Below, in pieces: positions 12,001 through 15,000 of a stretch of DNA of 64,000 nucleotides. Positions within the stretch are counted from its first letter, which is position 1; every line of letters begins with the position of its first letter. The stretch comes from Escherichia coli O157:H7. GTDB taxonomy: Bacteria; Pseudomonadota; Gammaproteobacteria; Enterobacterales; Enterobacteriaceae. A program made the position numbers. The DNA is taken from the NCBI RefSeq assembly GCF_013167455.1, contig NZ_CP038328.1; one strand, given 5' to 3'.

Positions 12001-15000
12001 TTTGTCTGACTCAAACCAGTAATTCATAAACATATACGGGTCGGCAAAATCCGGACTCCAGTTGCCAATCGCAATGTCGTAATCACCTTTACCCACTCTG
12101 TCGCGCATGGTGGCGTTCGCCAGCTTTTCCAGCTTCACATTGATGCCCAGCTTGTTGAGGCTGGATTGTGTTGCCAGAGCGATCGGTTCCCAGTTCGGAT
12201 CGTTATCGGAGTAGAGAAACGTCAGGCTGGTGGGTTTGCTCGTCACTTTATCCCATTCGGCTTTGGCTTTCGTTTCGTCATGGTTGTATTGCATTGCCGT
12301 CGCATCGTAGCCCCACATGCCTTCCGGAATCGGGCCGCGCATTTGTTTTCCGTTACCACTCAGAATGCCGTTAACCATGCCCTGATAATCGGTAGACCAG
12401 GAAATGGCCCGCCGCAGATCCGCCTGATTAAGTGGCGCTTTGCTGTTATTCAGATACAGATAGGTGACGCGCAGTGACGGATACTCTGCCACATTGACTT
12501 TGTTTTCCTGCTTCAGGGCGTTGAGTTGATCCACCGGCAGCGCATCGGCAATGTCAATGTCGCCACGGGAGAGCTGCAGGCGACGGGAGGCACTTTCACC
12601 GATAATTTTTACCGATACTCGCTTAAAGTTCGGTTTATTGCCGGGGTAATGCGGATTTGGCACCAGAACTAATTGCTGACCTTTTTGCCAGCTTTTCAGC
12701 ATAAATGGTCCGGAACCGGCGGTATTTTGCGCGAGGAAGCCGCGGGCATCATCCGCCGCATGTTCCTTTAATACCGCCGGATTGATAATGGATGCACCGT
12801 CATTCGCCAGCGTGTAGAGGAACGGTGCAAATGGCTGGCTAAGGGTAAACTTCACCGTATGTTCGTCGGGAGCATCAATCTTTAAATCTTTGGGAAATGC
12901 TTCTGCTGGCCCCTGGCCGATTTTTAGTAACCGCTCAAAAGAGAGTTTTACTGCTTCGGCAGTGACAGGTGTGCCATCGGCAAATTTAGCATTATCTTTC
13001 AGGGTGAACGTCCACTCTTTTTGATCGTTAGACGCTTTCCAGCTACTTGCCAGATCGCCTTCAACGTCGGTTGAGCCTTTATCACCGTCCGTTTTGTACT
13101 GAACCAGTCGCTGATAAGACGGGTAGGTCACTGTCCAGTCGTTATTATCTATTGTTACCGCCGGGTCGAGGGTTTGTGGATCGGCGGCCTTACCAATCAC
13201 CAGCATATCTTTCGGTACGGCGGCGTGCGCAACCGGGAAAGTTGTGGCAAGGACGAGCGCGAGCAATGTGGGACGAAACGATATCGATCTCTTCATGGCA
13301 GTTTCCTGATTAACTGACGTGCTGTGTGCCAGGGGATATAAAACAGGTGAATTGATCAGCGAGCAGAGGGTAACTCGCTGCCTGGGGTAATTCGAAGTGC
13401 CACCATTCGCTGGAGATACCGACAAAACCGCCACCAGTCATTATCGCATTCAGCAACAGGCGATTGCGCTGAGCGGCGGGCGGGACGGAAGGGTGATAGG
13501 CATGGGAGCGCTCGTGCATTTCATCGAACCCTGCGCCCATATCCAGGATGTTCCCGTGCTCATCACGAAGCGTCAGGTCGATCGCCGTGCCACGGCTGTG
13601 ATTAGAACCGACCGTCACATCAACAACATATTGCGGGTCTGGGCAGGCTTGCCACAACATCGCCTGTGCTTGTTGTGGGCGATACGCATCGTAAATCACC
13701 AGTTGTAAGCCTGATAGCTGGGCGATACTGATACTTTTCGCCAGCGCGGTAATCGCATCCTTGTGTAACAGACAACGCGCTTGCTGGTAAATAGCTTTAC
13801 CTGTGATGTTATCAGCGCAGGCGTATTTCAATTCGATCTCCAGATCAGGGAAGATCACGGCTAAATCAACCAGTTCGGTGGTATCCGACATAAACGGTTC
13901 CTGTATAAGACAAAAATTGCTGCGCTTTCCGCTTATGCAGATCTCATGCCATGCCGGGATAAGCGCCAGAATGCTGGCTTAAAGTTATATTTTTTAACTT
14001 TTGATCAACATTTGTGCAGCGTAGTGCAGTTTTGGTGCAAGAGGGGAAGTTAAGGAAGGAATCTCCCGGAATCGTAGCTGAAATCACAGTATTTAAGTGA
14101 CAGTGTCACGTTAAATGAAAACCCGCGAGTGCGGGAGAGAGGAATTTGTCAGATTTTCAGCGGTAACACGCTGCTCATCCAGCCTGGAATTTCTTCGGCG
14201 GGTAGGGGGCGGGAAAAGAAATATCCCTGAATAACGCGACAGTGGATCTTTCGTAGCATCTCAAATTGCTCTTTGGTTTCGACGCCTTCCGCCACGACGG
14301 TTAAATTGAGGCTTTGCCCAATGCTGGTAATGGCTTCAAGTAAGGCCAGGATGCGTTTTTCCGTCAGACAACGATCGACAAAACTTTTGTCAATTTTGAT
14401 TTCCGTTACCGGAAGACTGACTAAGCGGGATAATCCGGAAAAGCCCGTGCCAAAATCATCTACCGATAAACCCACGCCCATATCACGCAGGATCTGAATG
14501 CGCTTAAAGATTTCGGTATCGTGTTCCATCATCATGCTTTCCGTGATTTCTACCGTCAGCTGGTGGCCGTCAATACCCCAGGCTTGCATTGCATCAGACA
14601 CCTGATTAGGCAGCTGATTACTGCGAAAGTGCAGCGCCGACAAGTTCACGGATAACGCCGGGATATGAATATTCTGGCTACGCCATTCTGCTAACTGACG
14701 GCAAGCTTCCGCGATGACCCAGCGCCCAATATTTTCGATTTCACCAATCTCTTCTGCGAGAGGAATAAACCGTGAAGGGGGCACATGACCATGCTGGGGA
14801 TCGTGCCAGCGAGCAAGGGCTTCGATGCCGTAGAGTTCACCCGTTTCTGCGAAGATTTGCGGCTGGTAAACCAGTTTCAGTTGGTTATTGCTAATCGCTT
14901 CTTTCAGCGCTGCGCCTAAAACCAAACGCTCTTTTACCATTTCGTTCATCGCCGGGCTGAAGAACTGCCAGCCGTTACCGCCATTCTTGCGAATATAATC

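What the first reader, a model, noticed from the sequence alone, without database searches (positions are those of the whole stretch)
13892..13960. Sigma-54-type promoter upstream of the ddpXABCDF operon
The minus strand carries TGGCATGAGATCTGCA, matching the -24 GG / -12 GC elements and spacing of sigma-54 promoters, about 45 bp upstream of ddpX. This fits nitrogen-limitation (NtrC) control of the D-Ala-D-Ala dipeptide salvage operon.
Basis: partly seen in the sequence, partly recalled or inferred. Interest (0 to 1): 0.35.

Follow-up and report, generated by a model that had tools for sequence, protein, structure and literature searches.

The report
Known sigma-54 promoter of ddpXABCDF

Summary
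The sequence is there. TGGCATGAGATCTGCA lies at 13936-13951 on the minus strand, 44 nt upstream of the ddpX ATG (13891), with GG at -25/-24 and GC at -13/-12.

The match alone is not beyond chance. It is the best sigma-54 PWM hit in the window (14.7 bits), but random 64 kb yields about 1.4 such hits.

Context decides it. The window is E. coli O157:H7, and its dosP-ddpX intergenic region matches K-12 MG1655 except for one SNP at the dosCP terminator. In K-12 this exact 17-mer is a sigma-54 ChIP-seq site (Bonocora 2015, OS16). NtrC ChIP-seq peaks there (Brown 2014). NtrC and sigma-54 holoenzyme shift a probe mapping to 13815-14223, and ddpX mRNA rises 104-fold on nitrogen depletion (Shimada 2021).

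My additions:
- A sigma-54 motif sits at the operon start in 67 of 80 Enterobacterales species (1.8 expected). TGGCA and TGC are invariant and the spacer varies.
- A 46-bp upstream block (13994-14039) with three TGCAC half-sites is conserved in Citrobacter and Enterobacter. It is the likely NtrC enhancer.
- In other genera the operon begins with an RpiR-family regulator gene that Escherichia lacks.

Verdict: observation confirmed, interpretation supported, already known, low interest.

The parts
13936..13952 (-). Sigma-54 core promoter, ATGGCATGAGATCTGCA. The -24 element is TGGCA (GG at 13950-13949) and the -12 element is TGCA (GC at 13938-13937).
   Evidence: Exact match. Top PWM hit of the window at 14.72 bits. 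Identical to ChIP-seq site OS16 of Bonocora 2015. TGGCA and TGC are invariant across 56 distinct orthologous promoter sequences.
13925..13925 (-). Predicted transcription start (+1), 12 nt downstream of the C of the -12 GC. It has not been mapped experimentally.
   Evidence: Derived from the sequence geometry. It equals Bonocora's rule (19 bp downstream of the motif centre) and their listed distance of 34 nt to ddpX.
13892..13924 (-). 5' untranslated leader of ddpX, with Shine-Dalgarno AGGA at 13902-13899, 7 nt before the ATG.
   Evidence: Read from the sequence.
13994..14039 (-). Conserved upstream block TGCACCAAAACTGCACTACGCTGCACAAATGTTGATCAAAAGTTAA, the probable NtrC enhancer (UAS). Three TGCAC half-sites lie at 14039-14035, 14028-24 and 14018-14. 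They can be read as two 17-bp sites: 14023-14039 centred near -106, and 14002-14018 (TGCACAAATGTTGATCA, 10 of 14 to the consensus) centred near -85.
   Evidence: Nearly invariant across Escherichia, Citrobacter and Enterobacter while the flanks diverge. The triple TGCAC is unique in the window, with 0 expected. It lies inside the EMSA probe that NtrC shifts. Assigning it to NtrC is an inference.
13953..13993 (-). A/T-rich, poorly conserved spacer between the upstream block and the promoter. It is 11 nt (one helical turn) shorter in Escherichia than in Citrobacter and Enterobacter.
   Evidence: Alignment A2; UAS offsets of -66 versus -77.
14112..14135 (-). Intrinsic terminator of the upstream dosCP operon (CCCGCACTCGCGGG followed by a T-run). 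It insulates ddpX from read-through.
   Evidence: Terminator scan. The dosP stop lies at 14149-14151.
13310..13891 (-). ddpX, D-Ala-D-Ala dipeptidase, the first gene of the operon.
   Evidence: ORF list; Pfam Peptidase_M15 at 4e-79; RefSeq annotation of a record identical over 13200-14400 (99.9% over the 13.2-kb locus).
7927..13296 (-). ddpA (11746-13296), ddpB (10722-11744), ddpC (9829-10725), ddpD (8846-9832) and ddpF (7927-8853): the ABC transporter genes, abutting or overlapping, transcribed from the same promoter.
   Evidence: ORF list; annotation; ddpA is intact in the window. ddpF mRNA also rises on N depletion, but only 2.2-fold.

Best explanation
This is ddpXp, the enhancer-dependent sigma-54 promoter of the ddpXABCDF operon. 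RNA polymerase carrying sigma-54 binds the -24 TGGCA and -12 TGCA elements at 13936-13952 and stays in a closed complex. Under nitrogen limitation, phosphorylated NtrC assembles on the conserved TGCAC-rich block about 85-106 bp upstream of the start (13994-14039). It contacts the holoenzyme by looping across the A/T-rich spacer and uses ATP hydrolysis to open the promoter. Transcription starts near 13925 and produces the D-Ala-D-Ala dipeptidase and its ABC transporter, which scavenge cell-wall dipeptide. Shown in published K-12 work on identical sequence: sigma-54 occupancy, NtrC occupancy and binding, and induction on N depletion. Inferred: the exact start site, which bases NtrC contacts, and the looping geometry.
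For: Motif and geometry. Best PWM hit in 64 kb. The window matches K-12 from 13860 to 14160 except for one SNP at 14136. Sigma-54 ChIP-seq site OS16 has the same 17-mer, FAT 10. NtrC ChIP-seq peak at ddpXABCDF. gSELEX, gel shift with NtrC, RpoN holoenzyme and both together, and a 104.5-fold ddpX induction on N depletion. The EMSA primers map exactly to window 13815-14223. No sigma-70-like promoter in 13700-14300, and a terminator lies after dosP. A sigma-54 motif of at least 12 bits at the operon start in 67 of 80 species against 1.8 expected, with TGGCA and TGC invariant and a variable spacer. The upstream block and core promoter are the only conserved islands between genera. NtrC-like dyads (11-12 of 14) lie at -100 to -135 in Raoultella, Pantoea and Serratia orthologues. 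The 154-bp region is at least 99% identical in 4112 of the 4274 E. coli genomes that have it, whereas the flanking 1.2 kb is mostly 95-99% identical.
Against: The motif score alone is within chance expectation. No canonical NtrC dyad (3 or fewer mismatches of 14) lies upstream of ddpX; the block consists of same-orientation half-sites, and the best full 17-mer scores only 10 of 14. The reported 80-bp NtrC ChIP-seq interval covers the core promoter rather than the block about 60-100 bp further upstream, although ChIP resolution and looping could explain that. The start site is predicted, not mapped (marked 'P'). ddpXA also shows RpoS dependence in stationary-phase O157:H7 EDL933, which this model does not explain. 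ddpF rises only 2.2-fold against 104-fold for ddpX.
Confidence: 0.93

Rival explanations
1. A separate RpoS- or sigma-70-type promoter in the same intergenic region supplies stationary-phase expression, in addition to or instead of the sigma-54 promoter.
For: ddpXA was 39- and 31-fold RpoS-dependent in stationary-phase O157:H7 EDL933 (PMC2907692). From my own knowledge, Lessard et al. 1998 reported RpoS-dependent ddpX expression. RpoD gSELEX reports only an internal site near ddpB/ddpA.
Against: No sigma-70-like -35/-10 pair was found in 13700-14300. RpoD gSELEX did not list the ddpX upstream region. The only conserved islands are the sigma-54 elements and the TGCAC block. RpoS dependence could be indirect, through nitrogen or ppGpp status. 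[quoted passage not shown]
Confidence: 0.2
2. The motif is a sigma-54 binding site that never fires or acts as a roadblock, as proposed for many ChIP-seq and gSELEX sites, or it is a chance match.
For: The score is within chance expectation. Bonocora 2015 and Shimada 2021 both describe non-productive or repressive sigma-54 sites.
Against: It is intergenic, correctly oriented, and 34 nt from the start codon with no alternative promoter. ddpX is induced 104-fold on N depletion. The motif is kept at the operon start in 67 of 80 species.
Confidence: 0.02
3. The promoter is sigma-54-dependent but is activated through the conserved block by an enhancer-binding protein other than NtrC.
For: The block is not a canonical NtrC dyad. 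The NtrC ChIP-seq interval is centred on the core promoter.
Against: TGCACCA, TGCACTA and TGCACAA are NtrC half-sites (consensus). Purified NtrC shifts the probe. There is an NtrC ChIP-seq peak. The orthologous operons in other genera carry better NtrC dyads.
Confidence: 0.03

Closest known systems
ddpXp of E. coli K-12 MG1655 (b1488; sigma-54 ChIP-seq site OS16 of Bonocora et al. 2015; an NtrC regulon member since Zimmer et al. 2000)
   Same: The same locus and the same 17-mer. The whole intergenic region is identical except for one SNP at 14136 beside the dosCP terminator.
   Different: Nothing relevant. The host here is O157:H7, in which the upstream dosP carries a 10-bp frameshifting deletion. 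That deletion lies beyond the terminator.
glnAp2, glnHp2, astCp and nac promoters (classical NtrC-activated sigma-54 promoters)
   Same: GG-N10-GC core elements, an upstream activator region roughly 80-140 bp from the start, and induction on nitrogen limitation.
   Different: Those promoters carry recognisable TGCACCAnnnTGGTGCA dyads. The ddpX upstream block has three same-orientation TGCAC half-sites spaced 11 and 10 bp apart, and at best a 10-of-14 dyad.
Orthologous rpiR-like-ddpX-ddpA operons of Citrobacter, Enterobacter, Serratia, Pantoea and Raoultella (loci L005-L082)
   Same: A sigma-54 core motif at the operon start. In Citrobacter and Enterobacter the same upstream block is conserved almost base for base.
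   Different: In those genera the first gene encodes an RpiR-family (HTH_6 + SIS) regulator, with conserved TTGTTA/TAACA repeats just after the -12 element. Escherichia lacks both, and its upstream block sits 11 bp closer to the promoter.

Membership tests
Sigma-54 (RpoN) -24/-12 promoter | GG and GC dinucleotides exactly one helical turn apart within TGGCAC-N5-TTGCW | tested here: met
   TGGCATgagatCTGCA has two mismatches at non-critical positions and keeps GG and GC. It scores 14.72 bits, the 60th percentile of 134 ChIP-seq sites.
Sigma-54 (RpoN) -24/-12 promoter | The match is more than chance from sequence alone | tested here: not met
   35 consensus hits against 39 expected; 1 PWM hit at or above 14.72 bits against 1.36 expected. 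This weakens the sequence-only argument, not membership.
Sigma-54 (RpoN) -24/-12 promoter | Promoter-like placement: intergenic, same orientation as the gene, short leader, no competing promoter, insulated from the upstream operon | tested here: met
   34-nt predicted leader, dosCP terminator at 14112-14135, and no sigma-70-like site.
Sigma-54 (RpoN) -24/-12 promoter | Evolutionary conservation of the -24/-12 elements at orthologous operon starts | tested here: met
   67 of 80 species loci against 1.8 expected. The TGGCA and TGC columns carry 2.0 bits and the spacer 0.3-1.1 bits.
Sigma-54 (RpoN) -24/-12 promoter | Occupancy by sigma-54 holoenzyme | not testable with these tools
   Published for the identical K-12 sequence: ChIP-seq OS16, FAT 10; gSELEX and gel shift.
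Sigma-54 (RpoN) -24/-12 promoter | Transcription start about 12 nt downstream of the GC, and rpoN-dependent transcription | not testable with these tools
   The start is predicted only ('P'). ddpX rose 104.5-fold on N depletion in an experiment that included rpoN and ntrC deletion strains. [quoted passage not shown]
NtrC (GlnG) regulon / NtrC-dependent enhancer | Upstream NtrC binding sites matching TGCACCAnnnTGGTGCA, usually two or more on the same helical face | tested here: inconclusive
   No dyad with 3 or fewer mismatches. There are three perfect TGCAC half-sites at 11- and 10-bp spacing, unique in the window and conserved across three genera. The best 17-mer scores 10 of 14.
NtrC (GlnG) regulon / NtrC-dependent enhancer | NtrC binding and ntrC-dependent induction on nitrogen limitation | not testable with these tools
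   Published: NtrC ChIP-seq peak; a gel shift by purified NtrC on a probe that maps to window 13815-14223; RT-qPCR.

The most novel reading that the evidence does not exclude
The enhancer of ddpXp may be an atypical NtrC site array rather than a pair of canonical dyads. It is a 46-bp block with three same-face TGCAC half-sites, conserved almost base for base in Citrobacter and Enterobacter. That block and the sigma-54 core would be what remains of an ancestral operon whose first gene encoded an RpiR-family regulator. Escherichia lost that gene and its leader operators, moved the block one helical turn closer, and left the operon under NtrC control alone. I found no description of this architecture in the papers I could read, but I could not read Zimmer 2000, Reitzer & Schneider 2001 or EcoCyc/RegulonDB.
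Probability: 0.4. Interest if true: 0.25.

Novelty: already known. Interest (0 to 1): 0.1.

Why it matters
It confirms that a sequence-only reader can pick out a genuine sigma-54 promoter, but it adds nothing to E. coli biology. ddpXABCDF has been an accepted NtrC/sigma-54 target since 2000, confirmed by ChIP-seq, gSELEX, gel shift and RT-qPCR. The comparative result is of modest use to people who model NtrC site grammar or annotate Enterobacterales regulons. That result is the conserved core, the conserved atypical upstream block, and the loss of an RpiR-family first gene in Escherichia.

Tried and rejected
- Counting consensus matches and a PWM-versus-random test both showed the motif alone is not significant, so I did not use them as proof.
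- A search for a canonical NtrC dyad found none near ddpX.
- A sigma-70 promoter scan found none.
- An IHF site (WATCAANNNNTTR) between the block and the promoter, checked by eye, has no match better than two mismatches. I do not claim one; the A/T-rich spacer may bend intrinsically, which is speculation.
- Scanning only the 300 bp directly upstream of ddpX homologues first suggested no conservation outside Escherichia. That was misleading, because in most genera ddpX is the second gene. Rescanning the 2.5 kb upstream found the motif at the true operon start.
- Zimmer 2000 (PMC18977) and Reitzer & Schneider 2001 (PMC99035) are not held.
- The Shimada 2021 supplement holds primers but no per-site NtrC motif for ddpX.
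- The 'frameshifted ddpA' flag belongs to strain PV15-279, not to the window.

Full report
**Observation**

The 16-mer TGGCATGAGATCTGCA occurs once in the window, at 13936-13951 on the minus strand. The ddpX ORF is 13310-13891 on the minus strand and is a Peptidase_M15 D-Ala-D-Ala dipeptidase (E 4e-79). It is followed by ddpA, B, C, D and F with abutting or overlapping ends.

Reading the minus strand, GG lies at 13950-13949 and GC at 13938-13937, which is the canonical -24/-12 spacing. That places +1 near 13925 and gives a 34-nt leader with AGGA 7 nt before the ATG.

**Is it more than chance?**

Not from the motif alone.
- TGGCACN5TTGCW with up to 2 mismatches gives 35 hits in the window against 39 expected from shuffles.
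- I built a PWM from the 134 other sigma-54 ChIP-seq motifs of Bonocora et al. 2015, taken, leaving out the ddpX site.
- With that PWM the site is the single best 17-mer on either strand of the 64 kb. It scores 14.72 bits, the 60th percentile of genuine sites.
- First-order Markov random sequences of the same size still give 1.36 hits at or above that score.

What lifts the site above chance is its context. It is intergenic and co-oriented with ddpX. It lies downstream of an intrinsic terminator that ends the dosCP operon (14112-14135). There is no sigma-70-like promoter in 13700-14300.

**Identity of the locus**

The window is E. coli O157:H7; it is 100% identical to NZ_AP018488.1 over 13200-14400. 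From 13860 to 14160 it matches K-12 MG1655 except for one SNP at 14136, just 5' of the terminator stem. Experiments on K-12 therefore apply to the same DNA.

**Published evidence**

- Bonocora et al. 2015 (PMC4591121), Table 1, lists site OS16. Its motif is ATGGCATGAGATCTGCA, minus strand, gene ddpX, with a predicted start 34 nt upstream of the gene and fold-above-threshold 10. It is flagged as previously predicted in EcoCyc.
- Brown et al. 2014 (PMC4066584) list an NtrC ChIP-seq peak at ddpXABCDF.
- Shimada et al. 2021 (PMC8743547) recovered the ddpX spacer by gSELEX with RpoN holoenzyme. They treat ddpX as a known NtrC-dependent RpoN promoter, citing Zimmer et al. 2000.
- The same study shows NtrC-probe, holoenzyme-probe and ternary complexes in gel shifts.
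- It also reports a 104.5-fold rise of ddpX mRNA (2.2-fold for ddpF) on nitrogen depletion, in an experiment that included rpoN and ntrC deletion strains. Their gel-shift primers match the window exactly at 13815-13834 and 14202-14223.
- Dong & Schellhorn 2009 (PMC2907692) list ddpXA in O157:H7 EDL933 with 'RpoN NtrC' as major regulators. They also report 39- and 31-fold RpoS dependence in stationary phase.

**Comparative evidence generated here**

*Sigma-54 core.* A scan of one genome per species with DdpX returned 80 loci.
- Only the two Escherichia loci and a few others have a sigma-54 motif directly upstream of ddpX.
- In most genera, ddpX is preceded by a co-oriented gene of about 288 aa. 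These genera include Citrobacter, Enterobacter, Lelliottia, Pantoea, Mixta, Serratia, Raoultella and Brenneria.
- That gene encodes an RpiR-family (HTH_6 + SIS) protein. A 13-17-bit sigma-54 motif sits about 57-75 bp upstream of it.
- Overall, 70 hits of at least 12 bits in 67 of 80 loci lie at the operon start on the correct strand. The background density in the same loci predicts 1.8.
- Among 56 distinct sequences, the TGGCA and TGC columns are invariant (2.0 bits) while the spacer and flanks vary (0.1-1.1 bits).

*Upstream block.* An alignment of Escherichia, Citrobacter and Enterobacter upstream regions shows only two conserved islands.
- One is the core promoter.
- The other is a 46-bp block, TGCACCAAAA(C/G)TG(C/A)ACTACGCTGCACAAATGTTG(A/T)TCA...GTTAA, at window 13994-14039.
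- In E. coli this block holds three TGCAC half-sites spaced 11 and 10 bp apart, an arrangement unique in the window with 0 expected.
- The block can be read as two 17-bp NtrC-like sites centred near -106 and -85. Each has a good left half and a degenerate right half; the better one scores 10 of 14.
- No canonical dyad with 3 or fewer mismatches is present.
- The block lies 11 bp (one helical turn) closer to the promoter in Escherichia than in Citrobacter and Enterobacter.
- More distant orthologues carry better dyads at -100 to -135, for example Raoultella TGCACCTTCTTTGTGCA and Pantoea TGCACTAGTGTGATGCA, each 12 of 14.

*Within E. coli.* The 154-bp block-plus-promoter is present in 4274 of 5426 complete genomes and is at least 99% identical in 4112 of them. 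The surrounding 1.2 kb is mostly 95-99% identical.

**Mechanism**

Sigma-54 holoenzyme binds 13936-13952 in a closed complex. Under nitrogen limitation, phosphorylated NtrC oligomerises on the upstream block, loops across the A/T-rich spacer and drives open-complex formation. Transcription from about 13925 yields the dipeptidase and the transporter.

Occupancy, NtrC binding and induction are published. The start site, the NtrC contacts and the looping are inferred. RpoS dependence in stationary phase is not explained; it may be indirect or may reflect a second, undetected promoter.

**Comparison, novelty and score**

This is the known ddpXp promoter, so it is neither a new member nor a new variant of its kind. 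The small additions are the cross-genus footprint, the atypical half-site enhancer, and the inference that Escherichia lost an ancestral RpiR-family first gene. Interest is 0.1.

Noticed in passing
window 15324/15325 (dosP, minus strand; ORFs 14149-15300 and 15297-16562): dosP carries a 10-bp deletion relative to K-12 (K-12 dosP nt 1281-1290), which frameshifts the gene into two ORFs. The deletion junction is at least 99% identical in 279 of 5333 matching E. coli genomes; the ten best matches listed include one labelled O157 and several otherwise unlabelled strains. About 5050 genomes keep the 10 bp. The closest record, PV15-279, has dosP annotated intact.
   Followed up: partly
E. coli population; L083 (NZ_AP038976.1, O103:H2 strain 129): About 21% of complete E. 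coli genomes (1152 of 5426) lack the ddpX promoter and upstream block. In O103:H2 strain 129, a deletion removes the 5' part of ddpX, the promoter and dosCP up to digH, leaving ddpABCDF without this promoter.
   Followed up: partly
L005 1620-2486, L016 1634-2488 and most of L005-L082: Outside Escherichia, the operon starts with an RpiR-family (HTH_6 + SIS) regulator gene. Just after the -12 element there are conserved repeats (TTGTTAAT-N4-TAACA, TGACAG-N5-TAACAGCGAG) that look like operators. Both are absent in E. coli.
   Followed up: partly
L054, L057, L058, L059, L061, L075 at about 1917 (minus strand): Serratia loci carry a conserved strong sigma-54 motif (CTGGCGCAGCTTTTGCG, 15-17.7 bits) antisense inside the rpiR-like gene. 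It resembles the intragenic sites described by Bonocora 2015.
   Followed up: no
window 61908-61924 (minus strand): The second-best sigma-54 PWM hit of the window is CTGGCGTAGTTGTTGCC, 14.69 bits. It lies antisense inside an ABC-ATPase gene (Walker [10 protein letters not shown] on the + strand, probably lsrA given the neighbouring lsr genes). It is not among the high-stringency ChIP-seq sites and is probably a chance match.
   Followed up: partly
window 11746-13296 (ddpA) versus NZ_AP018488.1: ddpA is annotated 'frameshifted' in strain PV15-279, but it is an intact 1551-nt ORF in the window. The two sequences differ by two indels over 13.2 kb.
   Followed up: yes
window 14084-14090 (minus strand): A short motif, A-TGTGA, about 160 nt upstream of the predicted start is also invariant across Escherichia, Citrobacter and Enterobacter. 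I have no assignment for it.
   Followed up: no
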